In this document: positions 1 to 9,000 of the stretch, piece after piece
How the letters are laid out: each line of letters starts with the position of its first letter
Numbering within the stretch: position 1 is the stretch's first letter
Assembly: GCF_009931435.1 (NCBI RefSeq)
Contig: NZ_CP043414.1
Length of the DNA: 64,000 nucleotides
Direction: 5' to 3' (one strand)
Origin: Escherichia coli
GTDB taxonomy: Bacteria > Pseudomonadota > Gammaproteobacteria > Enterobacterales > Enterobacteriaceae
Position numbers: made by a program

Positions 1-3000
1 TATGGAAAACCGCCAGTCGTATGATGCACCGATGGCGCTGGATAGCGATATTCGTCAGCGCTTAGAACTGCTGATTTCGCGTTTTCCGCTATAACCGGAG
101 CAATGATGTCATCTCGTTTGATTATTGCGCTGATTATCATGCTCTTAGCCCCGGGTGTGCAGGCGCACAATTTCGTCACTGGTAAAACGGTTACCCCTGT
201 TTATATCCAGGAAGGCGGCGAGCTGCTTCTGAATAGCGACGACGAAATTCACTACCAAAAGTGGAACAGCACACAGCTGGCGGGAAAAGTCCGCATTATT
301 CAGTATATCGCCGGGCGTAAGTCGGCGAAGAAAAAGAACTCACTGTTAATTAAAGCGGTTGAAGCGGCAAACTTTCCGCAGGATCGTTTTCAGCCCACCA
401 CCATTGTGAACACCGATGATGCCATCTTTGGTACTGGCTATTTTGTCGTTGGCAAAATCGAAAAAAATAAACGCCGCTATCCGTGGGCGCAATTCGTTAT
501 TGACGGCAATGGACAGGGACGCGTTGTCTGGCGGTTGCCGGAGCAGAGTTCAACCATTCTGGTGCTGAATAAAGCCGGGCAAATTCAGTGGGCAAAGGAC
601 GGCAGCCTGACGCCGGAAGAGGTAGATCATGTCATTGCGCTGGCGCAGAAGCTGATCAATGAATAAAAATTCAAAGGATTGAGGGCGTTAGTGAGATGAA
701 GCTGGTTGAACACTACATCATGCGTGGTACGCGCCGTCTGGTGCTGATTATCGTCGGTTTTCTGATCTTTATTTTCGCCAGCTACTCCGCACAGCGTTAT
801 CTGACCGAAGCGGCAAATGGGACATTAGCTCTTGATGTTGTGCTGGATATTGTTTTCTACAAGGTGCTGATTGCACTGGAGATGTTGTTACCTGTTGGAC
901 TGTATGTGTCAGTTGGCGTGACGCTAGGGCAGATGTATACCGACTCGGAAATTACCGCTATTTCTGCGGCGGGGGGGAGTCCGGGACGCTTGTACAAAGC
1001 CGTTCTTTATCTGGCGATACCGCTAAGTATTTTTGTCACCCTTCTGTCGATGTATGGTCGTCCGTGGGCTTATGCGCAGATTTATCAACTGGAGCAACAG
1101 TCGCAGTCGGAGCTGGATGTTCGCCAGTTGCGGGCAAAGAAATTTAACACTAACGATAACGGACGAATGATCCTTTCGCAGACGGTTGATCAGGATAATA
1201 ATCGCCTGACTGACGTGCTGATTTATACTTCTACTGCCAATCGAACCCGTATTTTCCGCGCCCGTTCGGTTGATGTAGTTGACCCATCACCCGAGAAACC
1301 GACCGTTATGTTGCATAACGGGACCGCCTATCTTCTCGATCATCAGGGGCGTGACGACAACGAACAGATCTACCGTAATCTGCAATTGCATCTGAATCCG
1401 CTGGATCAAAGCCCTAACGTCAAACGCAAAGCAAAATCGGTCACGGAGCTGGCGCGCTCCGCCTTTCCTGCCGATCATGCCGAACTGCAATGGCGACAAA
1501 GCCGTGGCCTGACAGCATTGTTGATGGCGCTGCTGGCCATTTCATTAAGTCGGGTAAAACCGCGGCAAGGGCGATTTTCAACGTTATTGCCACTGACGTT
1601 GCTGTTTGTTGCCATTTTTTATGGCGGCGACGTCTGCCGTACGCTGGTGGCTAACGGCGCGATTCCCCTCATTCCTGGTTTGTGGTTAGTACCCGGACTC
1701 ATGCTAATGGGCCTGCTGATGCTGGTAGCACGCGACTTCTCTTTGCTGCAGAAATTTTCCCGATGAATGTTTTCAGTCGCTATTTAATCCGTCATCTCTT
1801 TCTCGGTTTTGCCGCCGCCGCAGGGCTATTGCTGCCGCTCTTTACCACCTTCAACCTGATTAACGAACTGGATGATGTCAGCCCGGGTGGTTATCGCTGG
1901 ACTCAGGCGGTGCTGGTGGTGCTGATGACCTTACCGCGCACACTGGTCGAACTTTCGCCGTTTATCGCCTTATTGGGAGGGATTGTCGGCCTGGGGCAGT
2001 TATCGAAAAACAGTGAGCTTACCGCCATTCGCAGCACGGGGTTTTCTATCTTCCGTATTGCACTGGTGGCGCTGGTTGCCGGGATATTGTGGACTGTTTC
2101 ATTAGGCACGATAGATGAGTGGGTGGCGTCGCCATTGCAGCAACAGGCGCTGCAAATCAAATCGACTGCCACTGCGTTGGGGGAGGACGATGACATTACC
2201 GGCAATATGCTGTGGGCCAGGCGTGGTAATGAATTTGTGACGGTGAAATCGCTGAACGAGCAGGGCCAGCCGGTGGGCGTGGAGATATTTCATTACCGCG
2301 ACGATCTCTCGCTCGAATCCTACATTTATGCACGCAGTGCCACCATTGAAGACGACAAAACGTGGATCCTGCATGGTGTGAATCATAAAAAATGGCTGAA
2401 TGGCAAAGAAACGCTGGAAACATCTGATAATCTTGCCTGGCAATCGGCCTTCACCAGTATGAATCTTGAAGAGTTATCGATGCCGGGAAATACTTTTTCT
2501 GTCCGTCAACTTAATCATTACATCCATTATTTGCAGGAAACCGGGCAACCCAGCAGCGAATACCGCCTTGCACTGTGGGAAAAACTGGGACAACCCATCT
2601 TGACCCTGGCGATGATTTTGCTGGCTGTGCCGTTTACCTTTAGTGCCCCGCGTTCGCCTGGGATGGGTAGCCGTCTCGCTGTAGGCGTCATCGTGGGCTT
2701 ACTCACCTGGATCAGCTATCAAATCATGGTCAATCTGGGATTGCTATTTGCGTTGAGCGCACCTGTTACCGCGCTCGGTTTACCGATAGCGTTTATGCTG
2801 GTGGCGTTGAGCCTGGTGTATTGGTATGACAGTCAACATTAAACCCGCCGTGGCGCAGCACCACAGCGGGCTCACATTACTGCTTCAGAGTAGCAAATGC
2901 CTGAATGATGGCATCGATTTGCTCACGAGTGTGGGCAGCGTTTACGCTACAGCGCAGCAGCGTGATGCCTGCAGGCGCGGCAGGTGGCAGGATAAGATTC

Positions 3001-6000: not shown

Positions 6001-9000
6001 CGAATTGATGGAGTTGTTCTGCGGAGATCGGCTCAGCACCAATACCAGCAACGCGCCAGCAGGAAAGATCCAGTTCAGCGAGATCTTTTTCATTCACGCG
6101 GCGCTGGCACAATTCATAGCCAAACGGCGGCGCAACAGAAACGGTGCCGCGATTTTTACTGATCAATTTAAGCCATTGCAGAGGACGCATGGCAAAATCC
6201 TGAGTGCGCAAATAATCTACTGAGAGCTGCGTGGCGACGGGGGTCAGGAGAAAGCCGACCAGTCCCATATCATGGTAGAAAGGCAGCCAGGAGACGCAGC
6301 GGTCGCCAGGGCGTAATTTAATGCCATCGTGGCTTATAGCACGTAGATTAGCCATCACTTCGCGATGGGTGATAATGACGCCACGGGGAAAACGGGTGCT
6401 GCCGGAGGTGTACTGGAGGTAGGCGATATCGTTCGGAACTGGACGCTGGAGTACAACATCGGCTTCCGGTAATGCCTTAAACCAGGCGTGGCTTAAAACA
6501 TGTAATTCGGGGTTGTTATGCGTAGCAGCATTGACCAGTGGCAACCACTCATCACCAGTGATAATGGCTGCGGGCTGGCAACTTGCCAGTAAACCCTGCA
6601 GTTTGGCGCTCCAGGAATCCCGCTGACCGACGCCCATTGGAATTGCCAACGGGACGGCGACTAAGCCGGCATACTGGCAGGCAAAAAAAGCCTCTACAAA
6701 CCCGCTACTCGTTTCGGCAATCAGCGCCACGCGATCGCCTTTTTTCAGATTCAGTGATAACAACCGCTTCGCACCAGCTTCGGCACGCGCTTTTAACGTC
6801 TGATATTCCAGTTGATCTTCAAGTTGGCAACGTCTGTCATAAAAATTCATTCCGGCGCTACTCAGAGCGGCGTAGTCCAAAGCATCAACCAGCGTTGGAA
6901 AATCGGCATAGCGCATAGGTAGGGAATGCGTAAAGATGTTATTAGACATATACACCACGAAAAAAATTGGATATCAGAAATAAAATGACAATAATGCGGT
7001 GGATTATATAGGCATAAAAGATAAATGAGATAGTATTTTCATCGGTGCGATATTGAACATTGATTTAAATAATAGGTTTGGCTTTGTTGTTTTTATTGTG
7101 AATGATATTTAATTTATGAATATATTAAGAAGAAGCCTTGTTTGGTTGCCTTAAATCGACAAAAGGCATTGAGGCGCTTCTGTGTAGTCTCTGACCTTAT
7201 CTTAATTATTAATAAATACTATTTATTCTTTGTTTGTATTCATTGGGTTGATTATTAAGATGCCGTTCGTTGCTGTTGCAATCTGTTTGTCACCGTTAAT
7301 TATTTGTTATCCACAGAGATATGGAATGCGATCTGCTGATGATTAAAATTGAAAAAGTAATTAATAAAAATGACCTTAAGGCATTTATCGCTTTTCCGTC
7401 ATCACTTTATCCCGATGATCCAAACTGGATACCCCCTTTGTTCATTGAACGCAGCGAGCATTTGTCGGCGAAGAATCCGGGGACGGACCATATTATCTGG
7501 CAGGCGTGGGTAGCAAAAAAAGCGGGGCAGATAGTCGGGCGGATTACCGCGCAAATCGATACCTTGCACCGCGAGCGTTACGGTGACGATACCGGTCATT
7601 TTGGCATGATTGACGCCATTGATGATCCGCAGGTTTTTGCCGCGTTGTTTGGCGCAGCGGAAGCATGGTTGAAGTTACAAGGCGCAAGTAAGATCAGCGG
7701 GCCTTTCAGCCTGAATATCAATCAGGAAAGCGGATTACTGATTGAAGGTTTCGACACTCCGCCCTGTGCGATGATGCCGCACGGTAAACCGTGGTATGCC
7801 GCGCATATTGAACAATTGGGTTATCACAAAGGTATTGATTTACTGGCGTGGTGGATGCAACGAACCGATCTCACGTTCTCTCCGGCGCTAAAAAAACTGA
7901 TGGATCAGGTGCGCAAAAAGGTGACCATTCGCTGCATCAAGCGCCAGCGGTTTGCCGAAGAGATGCTGATCCTGCGTGAGATTTTCAACTCTGGCTGGCA
8001 GCACAACTGGGGATTTGTGCCGTTTACCGAACATGAATTTGCGACCATGGGCGATCAACTTAAATATCTGGTGCCGGACGATATGATCTACATCGCTGAG
8101 ATTGGTTCTGCACCCTGCGCGTTTATAGTCGGCTTGCCGAACATCAACGAGGCGATTGCCGATCTGAACGGATCGCTCTTTCCCTTCGGCTGGGCAAAAT
8201 TGCTGTGGCGCTTAAAAGTCAGCGGTGTGCGAACTGCGCGAGTGCCGCTGATGGGCGTGCGTGACGAGTATCAGTTCAGCCGCATCGGCCCGGTGATTGC
8301 GCTGTTATTGATTGAAGCCTTACGCGATCCGTTTGCTCGCCGGAAGATCGATGCGCTGGAGATGTCATGGATCCTCGAAACCAATACAGGCATGAATAAC
8401 ATGCTGGAACGCATTGGAGCGGAGCCGTACAAGCGTTACCGATTGTATGAAAAGCAGATTTGATGGCAGTCACCCCTGCTTCATCTCCAGCGGCACCGCC
8501 GAGCGAATCAAATGGTGGCCTTCCAGTTCGATATCGTGGAGATTCTTTTTCACGGTCCGCACATGATCACGTGCGGCGCGCTGGGCGACGTGCGGCAGTC
8601 GCTGCAACACCGCGTTGTAGATCCGCGCATGTTGGCGATCGATCTGCTTTTTTTGCTGTGGTCGATGGTAGAGATTATTTACGCTGGCAAACACTGAATT
8701 AAACATCAGATCGGTCAATGATTGCAGCGTAAAAACTAGCACCTGATTGTGGGAAGCCTGACAAATGGCAAGATGGAAAGCATGATCCAGCTGCGCGTGT
8801 TCGATCAGCGAAATTTCTTTGTTGTTTTCACTGGCGGCGAGCATTTTTTCATAACAGCGGGTTATCAAAACAAAATCCGCCTGGGTTCCCAGCGTAGCTG
8901 CCAACCTTGCCGATTCGCCTTCCAGCAATGCGCGAACGTCGAGTAGATCGTATAGCGTTCGCGGCTGTGTACTGAACAGATGGATCAGCGGGCTGGTGTC

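What the first reader, a model, noticed from the sequence alone, without database searches (positions are those of the whole stretch)
2877..8463. Candidate sphingoid-base / ceramide-like lipid biosynthesis operon (acyl-ACP synthetase, reductase, dedicated ACP, SPT-like synthase, plus divergent yghO)
Four translationally coupled minus-strand genes (overlaps ATGA at 5240-5243 and TAATG at 4047-4051) encode an adenylate-forming acyl ligase (YTSGSTRFPRGV, DTGDLGY, SGKPAR), an NAD(P)-Rossmann reductase (GATGFIGKY), a small ACP (DLGLESI) and a PLP alpha-oxoamine synthase whose lysine motif GTFSKSLASIGG resembles serine palmitoyltransferase more than BioF or Kbl. That enzyme set (acyl activation onto a private ACP, decarboxylative Claisen condensation with an amino acid, then ketone or double-bond reduction) is the logic of bacterial sphingolipid synthesis as described in Caulobacter and Bacteroidetes. 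The divergent yghO could supply the N-acylation step if it is a GNAT-like acyltransferase, which is not verified. E. coli is not regarded as a sphingolipid producer, and this locus is not in the K-12 gene order I recall. Alternative products: an alpha-amino-ketone signal (CqsA-like chemistry) or another N-acyl aminolipid.
Basis: partly seen in the sequence, partly recalled or inferred. Interest (0 to 1): 0.88.

Follow-up and report, generated by a model that had tools for sequence, protein, structure and literature searches.

The report
E. coli sphingolipid (ceramide) synthesis locus

Summary
Window 2877-8463 carries a minus-strand operon: fatty acyl-AMP ligase, SDR reductase, small ACP and a PLP alpha-oxoamine synthase. 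yghO lies divergent to it. All quoted motifs and both overlaps are present.

- The 390-aa enzyme passes NCBI's curated serine palmitoyltransferase model (599 bits, cut-off 500). It fails the BioF, Kbl and CqsA models.
- Its closest solved structures are Sphingomonas SPTs.
- YghO has no Pfam or NCBIfam hit, but it models at pLDDT 96 as a tandem GNAT. Its homologues sit beside spt and lptFG genes in distant proteobacteria.

It is not new. The proteins are 96-100% identical to ECD_02850-02854 of E. coli BL21(DE3). For that strain, Padilla-Gomez et al. 2022 showed the ACP carries 4'-phosphopantetheine. AasR with AcpR and Spt formed a lipid co-migrating with 3-oxosphinganine in cells, and Spt extracts made one from L-serine. 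YghO is reported 44% identical to Caulobacter ceramide synthase.

RefSeq annotates spt here in the complete E. coli genomes listed; 4067 of 5426 carry at least 80% of the locus. K-12 lost it by an IS5-linked deletion.

The cluster also extends left to ytfJ-lptF2-lptG2 (103-2842), which a 2026 preprint already draws for E. coli UTI89. No paper I could search reports native sphingolipid production in E. coli.

The parts
2..91 (+). Last 29 codons of a conserved 274-aa hypothetical protein. The gene runs off the left end of the window and belongs to the yghS-yghR-yghQ-hyp-ytfJ-lptF2-lptG2 gene string.
   Evidence: Frame-2 translation matches the C-terminus of BL21(DE3) ECD_RS14865. The protein has no Pfam or NCBIfam family. 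It is conserved next to yghQ and ytfJ in Serratia.
103..666 (+). YtfJ-family protein with a signal-peptide-like N-terminus. Its role in the cluster is unknown.
   Evidence: TIGR01626 scores 209 bits against a cut-off of 151. The N-terminus reads MMSSRLIIALIIMLLAPGVQA. It is 98.9% identical to the BL21 copy and lies in the same position in Serratia.
696..1766 (+). lptF2: a second, divergent LptF-type ABC permease, inferred to be the sphingolipid-specific partner of LptB.
   Evidence: TIGR04407 scores 323 bits against a cut-off of 230. It is only 29% identical to housekeeping E. coli LptF, but 37% identical to the LptF-like gene beside a YghO homologue in a deltaproteobacterial MAG. Caulobacter LptF2/G2 were shown to bind LptB and could not be deleted while the anionic sphingolipid CPG2 was being made (10.64898/2026.04.12.717747).
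1763..2842 (+). lptG2: a second, divergent LptG-type ABC permease. It overlaps lptF2 by 4 nt (ATGA) and converges on spt.
   Evidence: TIGR04408 scores 307 bits against a cut-off of 240. It is 28% identical to housekeeping LptG and 32% identical to the YghO-linked pair in L007. The start at 1763 follows the RefSeq annotation of the closest genome.
2877..4049 (-). spt: serine palmitoyltransferase, a PLP-dependent alpha-oxoamine synthase with Lys244. It condenses acyl-AcpR with L-serine to give 3-oxosphinganine.
   Evidence: NF047599 scores 599 bits against a cut-off of 500. The best PDB hit is S. paucimobilis SPT 2jg2 at E 4e-112. H137, D210, H213, K244 and R366 are invariant in alignment A2. 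It is 97.7% identical to ECD_02854, whose cell extract formed a [14C]serine-labelled lipid co-migrating with 3-oxosphinganine.
4049..4297 (-). acpR: dedicated acyl carrier protein with its 4'-phosphopantetheine site at Ser39 (DLGLESI). Its stop codon overlaps the spt start (TAATG).
   Evidence: It gives ACP-family hits, all below the housekeeping AcpP cut-offs. It is 100% identical to ECD_02853, which was labelled with beta-[3H]alanine.
4329..5243 (-). cerR/epi: extended-SDR NAD(P)-dependent reductase, inferred to reduce the 3-keto group of the sphingoid intermediate.
   Evidence: Pfam gives Epimerase, NmrA and NAD_binding_10. GATGFIG lies at residue 9 and YANSK at 122. It is 96.7% identical to ECD_02852, which is reported as 34% identical to Caulobacter CC_1164 at E 7e-38. 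Its function in E. coli has only been suggested.
5240..6949 (-). aasR: fatty acyl-AMP ligase that loads fatty acid onto AcpR. Its stop overlaps the cerR start (ATGA).
   Evidence: NF006624 scores 873 bits against a cut-off of 600. It is 95.8% identical to ECD_02851. AasR of E. coli supports 3-oxosphinganine formation with AcpR of E. coli but not with AcpR of Caulobacter.
6950..7320 (.). AT-rich divergent control region between aasR and yghO.
   Evidence: It is 371 bp at 30% GC, against about 52% for the flanking genes. The consensus promoter scan of 2700-8600 found no more sites than shuffles of that stretch, so no promoter is assigned.
7321..8463 (+). yghO: tandem-GNAT N-acyltransferase and orthologue of the bacterial ceramide synthase (bCerS/Aca). 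It is inferred to N-acylate the sphingoid base.
   Evidence: It has no Pfam, NCBIfam or PDB sequence hit. The AlphaFold2 model has pLDDT 96.4 and pTM 0.93, and the best folds are the tandem GNATs 2wpw, 5kf1, 7q3a and MshD. It is 98.4% identical to ECD_02850, which is reported as 44% identical to CC_1154. It lies beside spt and/or lptFG genes in Serratia, a deltaproteobacterial MAG, Kiloniellales and another MAG.

Best explanation
The locus is the E. coli copy of the proteobacterial sphingolipid (dihydroceramide) pathway.

Proposed mechanism:
1. AasR, a fatty acyl-AMP ligase, adenylates a free fatty acid and transfers it to the 4'-phosphopantetheine arm on Ser39 of the dedicated carrier AcpR.
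2. Spt (PLP on Lys244) condenses acyl-AcpR with L-serine, releasing CO2, to give 3-oxosphinganine. Published experiments on the 96-100% identical BL21(DE3) proteins support steps 1 and 2: co-expressed AasR, AcpR and Spt gave a 3-oxosphinganine-like lipid on TLC, and Spt extracts made one from labelled serine.
3. YghO, a tandem-GNAT orthologue of Caulobacter bCerS, adds the N-acyl chain.
4. The SDR (CerR/Epi orthologue) reduces the 3-keto group to give dihydroceramide. Steps 3 and 4 are inferred from orthology, fold and gene context. Their order is disputed in the literature.
5. The adjacent LptF2/LptG2 pair, probably powered by the housekeeping LptB, extracts the lipid from the inner membrane for delivery to the outer membrane. 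This is inferred from Caulobacter experiments and conserved linkage.

Under ordinary laboratory growth the native cluster does not yield detectable product. The physiological product and the inducing condition in E. coli are unknown.
For: - Curated HMMs: Spt passes NF047599 (599 bits, cut-off 500) and the ligase passes NF006624 (873 bits, cut-off 600).
- PDB ranking: SPTs score 263-378 bits, ahead of Kbl (204), the best chain named only as BioF (185) and CqsA (126).
- The catalytic residues H137, D210, H213, K244 and R366 are invariant.
- The window proteins are 95.8-100% identical to BL21(DE3) ECD_02850-02854.
- Published biochemistry on those proteins covers 4'-phosphopantetheine on AcpR, the AasR/AcpR dependence of 3-oxosphinganine formation, and SPT making 3-oxosphinganine from [14C]serine with a preference for acyl-AcpR (PMC9386255).
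- Published orthology: CC_1154 vs YghO is 44% identical at 1e-107, and CC_1164 vs the SDR is 34% identical at 7e-38.
- YghO has a tandem-GNAT fold at pLDDT 96.4.
- The SDR has the cofactor motif GATGFIG and the catalytic motif YANSK.
- Linkage is conserved: the same 13 genes occur in Serratia liquefaciens despite an inversion. YghO homologues of 33-50% identity lie beside LptF/G-like genes, and in two of the three loci beside an Spt-type aminotransferase gene; the full spt/ACP/SDR/ligase set appears only in the Kiloniellales locus.
- LptF2/G2 are closer to a YghO-linked pair in a deltaproteobacterium than to E. coli's own LptF/G.
- Caulobacter LptF2/G2 bind LptB and could not be deleted while the anionic sphingolipid CPG2 was being made.
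- Purifying selection: dN/dS is 0.05-0.17. At least 80% of the locus is present in 4067 of 5426 complete genomes.
Against: - No paper I could search reports a sphingolipid from unmodified E. coli.
- In PMC9386255, BL21(DE3) with empty vectors, or expressing Spt alone, showed no new lipid even though it carries the full chromosomal cluster.
- K-12 lost the locus. 835 complete genomes have no match and about 520 keep less than 80% of the query.
- The reductase and YghO activities have not been measured for the E. coli proteins.
- The residue that contacts the serine carboxylate in S. paucimobilis SPT (Arg378, from my own knowledge of that enzyme) is Leu354 here. The same Leu or Ile is found in the other YghO-linked Spts.
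Confidence: 0.88

Rival explanations
1. The cluster is a silent relic in E. coli. The enzymes are catalytically competent when over-expressed, but the locus is not expressed in nature and no sphingolipid is part of E. coli physiology.
For: BL21(DE3) with empty vectors shows no 3-oxosphinganine-like lipid despite carrying the cluster. Expressing Spt alone, or the Caulobacter AcpR/AasR pair alone, changes nothing. K-12 lost the locus by an IS5-linked deletion and grows normally. 835 of 5426 complete genomes have no match. The divergent control region has 30% GC, a composition often bound by silencing proteins; this last link is my inference.
Against: All eight genes compared are intact, and dN/dS against BL21 is 0.05-0.17 for those that differ. 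75% of complete genomes keep at least 80% of the locus. The whole 13-gene set is conserved in Serratia, with YghO about 81% identical and LptF2/G2 66-68% identical. A long-dead locus would not show this pattern.
Confidence: 0.1
2. The pathway makes a different amino lipid, such as a CqsA-type alpha-amino or alpha-hydroxy ketone signal, or a non-serine N-acyl aminolipid, rather than a sphingoid base.
For: CqsA, BioF, Kbl and Spt share one fold and the same chemistry. The Arg378 equivalent of S. paucimobilis SPT is Leu here. Extra SPT-dependent lipid spots of unknown nature were seen in vitro.
Against: The CqsA-type model scores 226 bits against a cut-off of 428, and CqsA structures score 126 bits against 378 for SPT. 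The BL21 enzyme incorporated L-[14C]serine into a compound that co-migrates with 3-oxosphinganine. The gene set matches the Caulobacter ceramide genes one for one.
Confidence: 0.02
3. The 390-aa enzyme is a BioF or Kbl paralogue, and the operon serves biotin or threonine metabolism or primes a polyketide.
For: PGAP-era and older annotations of relatives often read '8-amino-7-oxononanoate synthase'. The family HMMs do hit: bioF 336 bits and Kbl 299 bits.
Against: Both scores lie below the curated cut-offs of 426 and 460, while the SPT model is passed. No biotin, threonine or PKS genes are nearby.
Confidence: 0.005

Closest known systems
E. coli BL21(DE3) ECD_02850-ECD_02854 (yghO/aca, aasR, epi, acpR, spt), Padilla-Gomez et al. 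2022, PMC9386255
   Same: It is the same locus in the same position between glcC and the lptG2-lptF2-ytfJ string. The proteins are 95.8-100% identical and the gene order and overlaps are the same.
   Different: The differences are allelic only. Nucleotide identity is 96-97%, and there is a 4-aa indel near the AasR C-terminus. The window matches most E. coli at 96-97% and only four genomes at 99% or more.
Caulobacter crescentus ceramide genes CC_1162-CC_1165 plus CC_1154 (Spt, AcpR, CerR/Epi, AasR, bCerS/Aca) with LptF2/LptG2
   Same: It has the same five enzyme types and a linked second LptF/LptG pair. YghO is reported as 44% identical to CC_1154 and the SDR as 34% identical to CC_1164.
   Different: The E. 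coli neighbourhood examined shows no DAGK_cat-type ceramide kinase and no gene annotated as LptC. Instead it carries YghQ (a MOP-type flippase), three P-loop kinase-like proteins (YghR/S/T), a 274-aa protein of unknown family and a YtfJ protein. AasR of E. coli does not support 3-oxosphinganine formation with Caulobacter AcpR. The E. coli Spt matches NCBI's 'beta-proteobacterial' SPT model, not the 'alpha' one.
Sphingomonas paucimobilis and S. wittichii serine palmitoyltransferase (PDB 2jg2, 2x8u)
   Same: These are the best structural relatives, at 371-378 bits. The PLP lysine, His/Asp/His triad and C-terminal Arg are conserved.
   Different: Arg378 of the Sphingomonas enzyme is Leu354 here.
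Bacteroidetes sphingolipid pathway (Spt of the CFB type, KDSR BT_0972)
   Same: The first step has the same chemistry.
   Different: The CFB-type SPT model scores 338 bits against a cut-off of 640. From general knowledge, the Bacteroidetes pathway uses acyl-CoA directly and has no AcpR/AasR pair. This was not tested here.
CqsA, BioF and Kbl alpha-oxoamine synthases
   Same: They share the fold, the PLP chemistry and the lysine motif.
   Different: All their family models are failed, and their PDB scores are a third to about half of the best SPT score.

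Membership tests
Bacterial serine palmitoyltransferase (Spt) | Passes a curated SPT equivalog HMM and fails the sister families (BioF, Kbl, CqsA, ALAS) | tested here: met
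   NF047599 scores 599.4 bits against a cut-off of 500. The sister models all fail: bioF 336 (cut-off 426), Kbl 299 (460), CqsA-type 226 (428) and ALAS 218 (339).
Bacterial serine palmitoyltransferase (Spt) | PLP-binding lysine and the catalytic His/Asp/His and Arg residues of solved SPTs | tested here: met
   H137, D210, H213, K244 and R366 align with H159, D231, H234, K265 and R390 of 2jg2 and are invariant in A2. R378 of 2jg2 is Leu354 here.
Bacterial serine palmitoyltransferase (Spt) | Forms 3-oxosphinganine from L-serine and an acyl thioester | not testable with these tools
   This is published for the 97.7% identical BL21(DE3) enzyme (PMC9386255).
AcpR (specialised ACP of the rhodobacterial sphingolipid pathway) | A small ACP encoded immediately upstream of spt in one operon, with a phosphopantetheine-attachment serine | tested here: met
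   The 82-aa ACP has its stop overlapping the spt start. Ser39 lies in DLGLESI. It is 100% identical to ECD_02853, which was shown to carry 4'-phosphopantetheine.
AasR (acyl-AcpR synthetase, fatty acyl-AMP ligase subfamily) | A FAAL-type adenylate-forming enzyme linked to acpR-spt | tested here: met
   NF006624 scores 873.5 bits against a cut-off of 600. It lies in the same operon and is 95.8% identical to ECD_02851. Acylation of AcpR cannot be tested here. PMC9386255 inferred it for AasR of E. coli from in vivo product formation.
CerR / Epi (ceramide or 3-ketosphinganine reductase) | An extended-SDR with GxxGxxG and YxxxK, orthologous to Caulobacter CC_1164 and linked to spt | tested here: met
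   Pfam gives Epimerase, NmrA and NAD_binding_10. GATGFIG lies at residue 9 and YANSK at 122. An SDR occupies the same slot in the Serratia and Kiloniellales clusters. The 34% identity to CC_1164 is taken from PMC9386255 Table S2; I did not recompute it.
CerR / Epi (ceramide or 3-ketosphinganine reductase) | Reduces the 3-keto group of oxidised ceramide or 3-oxosphinganine | not testable with these tools
   This is only suggested for ECD_02852. No NCBIfam model for CerR was hit; the best match was HpnA, far below its cut-off.
bCerS / Aca (bacterial ceramide synthase) | A GNAT-type acyltransferase fold | tested here: met
   The AlphaFold2 model has pLDDT 96.4. The top Foldseek hits are tandem GNATs: 2wpw at E 8e-16, then 5kf1, 7q3a and MshD 1ozp.
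bCerS / Aca (bacterial ceramide synthase) | Orthology to Caulobacter CC_1154 and genomic association with spt across taxa | tested here: met
   The association was tested here in five loci from four lineages. One homologue is named 'Hypothetical protein associated with Serine palmitoyltransferase' by its source. The 44% identity at 1e-107 to CC_1154 comes from PMC9386255 Table S2.
bCerS / Aca (bacterial ceramide synthase) | N-acylates the sphingoid base | not testable with these tools
   This has not been measured for the E. coli protein. It is only suggested.
LptF2/LptG2 (sphingolipid-locus paralogues of the LPS permeases) | A second LptF/LptG pair, divergent from the housekeeping pair and encoded in the sphingolipid locus | tested here: met
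   TIGR04407 scores 323 bits and TIGR04408 307 bits. The pair is 29% and 28% identical to housekeeping LptF and LptG. Linkage is conserved in Serratia, in a deltaproteobacterial MAG and in Kiloniellales. A preprint draws the E. coli UTI89 locus.
LptF2/LptG2 (sphingolipid-locus paralogues of the LPS permeases) | Binds LptB and is needed for sphingolipid export | not testable with these tools
   This has been shown only for Caulobacter.

The most novel reading that the evidence does not exclude
Natural E. coli and many other Enterobacterales may make, under a condition not reproduced in the laboratory, an outer-membrane sphingolipid whose head group differs from the Caulobacter lipid.

In the enterobacterial loci examined here, no ceramide kinase (DAGK_cat), nucleotidyltransferase or metallophosphatase gene appears, unlike the distant clusters. 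Their place is taken by three P-loop kinase-like proteins (YghR/S/T), the MOP-type flippase YghQ, a 274-aa protein of no known family and a periplasmic YtfJ protein, together with LptF2/LptG2.

On this reading these unstudied genes would decorate and export the ceramide.
Probability: 0.3. Interest if true: 0.6.

Novelty: already known. Interest (0 to 1): 0.2.

Why it matters
E. coli is the textbook example of a bacterium with three glycerophospholipids and no sphingolipids. Even so, about three quarters of complete E. coli genomes carry an intact ceramide pathway under purifying selection, with its own Lpt-type exporter.

The field already knows this: Olea-Ozuna 2021 (cited, not read here), Padilla-Gomez 2022 and Uchendu 2026. 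The finding therefore adds no new biology.

Its practical value is as a reminder of two things. K-12 is a deletion mutant for this locus. The native product, its regulation and its role in the gut or in infection are still unreported in the literature I could search.

Tried and rejected
- The consensus promoter and terminator scan of 2700-8600 gave counts at the level of shuffles (7 vs 7.4, and 8 vs 7.3). Nothing is claimed from it.
- Sequence-profile searches of YghO found nothing: NCBIfam, Pfam and PDB sequences (best E 0.84). Only the predicted fold was informative.
- The 274-aa neighbour has no Pfam or NCBIfam family.
- Rfam found no RNA family inside the locus.
- The Stankeviciute et al. 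2022 Nat Chem Biol paper was not held under its DOI or its PMC id. The definitions of bCerS and CerR therefore rest on later papers from the same laboratory.
- I did not obtain the Caulobacter protein sequences. The identities to CC_1154 and CC_1164 are quoted from a published table, not recomputed.
- BioF, Kbl and CqsA readings were considered and rejected on curated cut-offs.
- Recent horizontal acquisition was considered. It is not supported by composition: the operon is 52.1% GC and the window 52.0%.

Full report
**1. Observation**

- On the minus strand lie a 572-aa ligase (569 aa from the ATG at 6949), a 304-aa SDR, an 82-aa ACP and a 390-aa PLP enzyme.
- yghO (380 aa) is divergent from them, across a 371-bp gap.
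- glcC follows yghO.

A script confirmed ATGA at 5240-5243 (ligase stop over SDR start) and TAATG at 4047-4051 (ACP stop over spt start). It also confirmed every quoted motif.

There are two small corrections. The SDR-to-ACP junction is a 31-nt spacer, not an overlap. RefSeq starts the ligase at the ATG at 6949.

**2. What the proteins are**

*NCBIfam curated models*
- The 390-aa enzyme passes the serine palmitoyltransferase equivalog NF047599 (599 bits, cut-off 500).
- It fails bioF (336, cut-off 426), Kbl (299, cut-off 460), the CqsA-type autoinducer synthase (226, cut-off 428) and ALAS.
- The ligase passes the fatty acyl-AMP ligase model NF006624 (873 bits, cut-off 600).

*Solved structures*
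- Sphingomonas SPTs lead at 371-378 bits.
- The Sphingobacterium SPT follows at 263, the best Kbl at 204, the best chain named only as BioF at 185 and CqsA at 126.
- The catalytic residues H137, D210, H213, K244 and R366 align with those of 2jg2 and are invariant in a five-sequence alignment.

*The SDR*
- It has Epimerase, NmrA and NAD_binding_10 domains, with GATGFIG at residue 9 and YANSK at 122.

*YghO*
- It gave nothing by NCBIfam, Pfam or PDB sequence search.
- HMMER against 1.8 billion representatives found a large full-length family, with 1064 clusters at E <= 1e-30.
- With an 89-sequence alignment, AlphaFold2 gave pLDDT 96.4 and pTM 0.93.
- The best Foldseek matches are tandem GNAT acyltransferases: 2wpw, 5kf1, 7q3a, mycothiol synthase MshD and Eis.

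**3. It is already described**

A full-text search found Padilla-Gomez et al. 2022 (PMC9386255). That paper treats this locus in E. coli BL21(DE3): ECD_02850 (yghO, 'aca'), ECD_02851 (aasR), ECD_02852 (epi), ECD_02853 (acpR) and ECD_02854 (spt).

I fetched the BL21(DE3) region and compared it with the window:

| Protein | Identity to BL21(DE3) |
|---|---|
| Spt | 97.7% |
| AcpR | 100% |
| SDR | 96.7% |
| AasR | 95.8% |
| YghO | 98.4% |

The paper reports the following:
- AcpR of E. coli is labelled by beta-[3H]alanine, so it carries 4'-phosphopantetheine.
- Co-expression experiments suggest that AasR of E. coli acylates AcpR of E. coli but not AcpR of Caulobacter.
- Extracts with SPT of E. coli convert L-[14C]serine into a lipid that co-migrates with 3-oxosphinganine. 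Palmitoyl-AcpR (the Caulobacter protein) was strongly preferred over palmitoyl-CoA or palmitoyl-AcpP.

Its Table S2 gives CC_1154 (Aca/bCerS) against YghO as 44% identical, E 1e-107, 98% coverage. It gives CC_1164 (Epi/CerR) against the SDR as 34% identical, E 7e-38.

The roles of the SDR and YghO in E. coli are only suggested, from spots that migrate like sphinganine and ceramide.

RefSeq names the gene 'spt: serine palmitoyltransferase' in every full-length record listed.

**4. Distribution and selection**

- Megablast against 5426 complete E. coli genomes found a match in 4591. At least 80% of the locus was present in 4067, almost always on the chromosome.
- K-12 keeps only yghO, next to an IS5 and a truncated yghQ. 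An IS5-linked deletion therefore removed everything from yghQ's 3' end to the far side of aasR.
- Against BL21, dN/dS is 0.05-0.17 for spt, the SDR, aasR, yghO, lptF2 and lptG2. acpR is identical.
- GC content of the operon (52.1%) equals that of the window (52.0%).

**5. The unit is larger than the finding**

Left of spt, and convergent on it, lie a YtfJ-family gene (103-666) and a second LptF/LptG pair (696-1766 and 1763-2842). Both permeases pass the curated Lpt models. Window 2-91 is the end of a 274-aa protein of no known family.

In the closest genome and in BL21, the string continues with yghQ (a MOP-type flippase) and the P-loop kinase-like yghR, yghS and yghT.

The same 13 genes occur in Serratia liquefaciens. 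There the transport string is inverted relative to the spt operon.

YghO homologues of 33-50% identity show similar neighbours:
- In a deltaproteobacterial MAG, the homologue lies beside LptF/G-like genes.
- In a second assembly, it lies beside an LptF/G-like gene, an SDR and an Spt-type aminotransferase gene.
- In a Kiloniellales genome, the full Caulobacter-like set is present, including spt, ACP, SDR and ligase genes.

The window's LptF2 and LptG2 are 29% and 28% identical to E. coli's housekeeping LptF and LptG. They are 37% and 32% identical to the YghO-linked pair in the deltaproteobacterium.

The literature agrees:
- The Caulobacter locus encodes LptC2, LptF2 and LptG2 and a putative flippase (PMC11324152).
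- A 2026 preprint shows that LptF2/G2 form a complex and bind LptB, and that they could not be deleted while the anionic sphingolipid CPG2 was being made.
- The same preprint draws the E. coli UTI89 locus.

This extension is therefore also known.

**6. Mechanism**

Supported by published work on near-identical proteins:
- AasR loads a fatty acid onto AcpR.
- Spt condenses acyl-AcpR with serine to give 3-oxosphinganine.

Inferred:
- YghO N-acylates the sphingoid base.
- The SDR reduces the 3-keto group.
- LptB2F2G2 extracts the lipid for the outer membrane.

The order of acylation and reduction is disputed between two laboratories.

**7. What is not known**

I found no report of a sphingolipid from unmodified E. 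coli. BL21 with empty vectors, or with Spt alone, makes no detectable product. The native cluster therefore appears silent in standard culture. The control region is 30% GC.

No ceramide kinase (DAGK_cat), nucleotidyltransferase or metallophosphatase gene appears in the enterobacterial loci examined, unlike the distant clusters. They carry YghQ/R/S/T, the 274-aa protein and YtfJ instead. Any head group is therefore likely to differ from the Caulobacter lipid. This is the only part with room for novelty.

**8. Verdict**

The novelty class is 'already known', and interest is low.

Noticed in passing
window 3810-3812 region of spt (Spt residue Leu354; motif VNLILPPAAP at residue 350): The position that aligns with Arg378 of S. 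paucimobilis SPT is Leu here. It is Leu or Ile in the three other YghO-linked Spts compared (Serratia, Kiloniellales, L008). All other catalytic residues are invariant.
   Followed up: partly
window 5240-6958 (aasR): The start codon is ambiguous. Candidates are GTG at 6958, ATG at 6949 (used by RefSeq in strain RMDEC465) and a later Met used in BL21. The window allele also lacks four residues (YQKA) near the C-terminus relative to BL21.
   Followed up: partly
window 2877-8463 as a whole: The window is only 96-97% identical to most E. coli genomes. It reaches 99% or more in just four records (best 99.3%, strain RMDEC465, human stool, Thailand), so it comes from an uncommon lineage.
   Followed up: no
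L006 (Serratia liquefaciens scaffold), 233-595 and 15095-18042: In Serratia, a DAGK_prokar gene sits directly after yghO. MipA and PAP2-phosphatase genes follow lptG2. None of these is in the E. coli locus. Relative to E. coli, the spt operon and the yghS-to-lptG2 string are inverted with respect to one another.
   Followed up: no
L007 3763-10731; L009 9223-17319: Distant YghO-linked clusters carry NTP_transf_3, Metallophos, DAGK_cat (ceramide-kinase type), Tam41-like and FA_hydroxylase genes. None of these appears in the enterobacterial loci examined, which points to different head-group chemistry.
   Followed up: no
L005 17888-20257 (BL21 yghR, yghS, yghT) and 16493-17842 (yghQ): Three paralogous P-loop proteins have only weak dTMP-kinase similarity (24-32 bits, cut-off 83). 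With a MOP-flippase-like protein, they are conserved next to the sphingolipid genes in both E. coli and Serratia. Their substrates are unknown.
   Followed up: partly
P0121 (784 aa), P0130 (630 aa), P0190 (940 aa): Some YghO-family representatives are much longer than 380 aa. P0121 has two matched stretches. These may be fusions or duplications of the ceramide-synthase-like domain.
   Followed up: no
window 15927-16148 (-) and 35161-35233 (-): Rfam finds the C0719 sRNA (286 bits) downstream of the glc genes, and one tRNA. A 1526-aa ORF at 18377-22957 and further large ORFs follow. These were not examined.
   Followed up: no
summary: One of the 4603 matching places in E. coli genomes lies on a plasmid rather than on the chromosome.
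   Followed up: no
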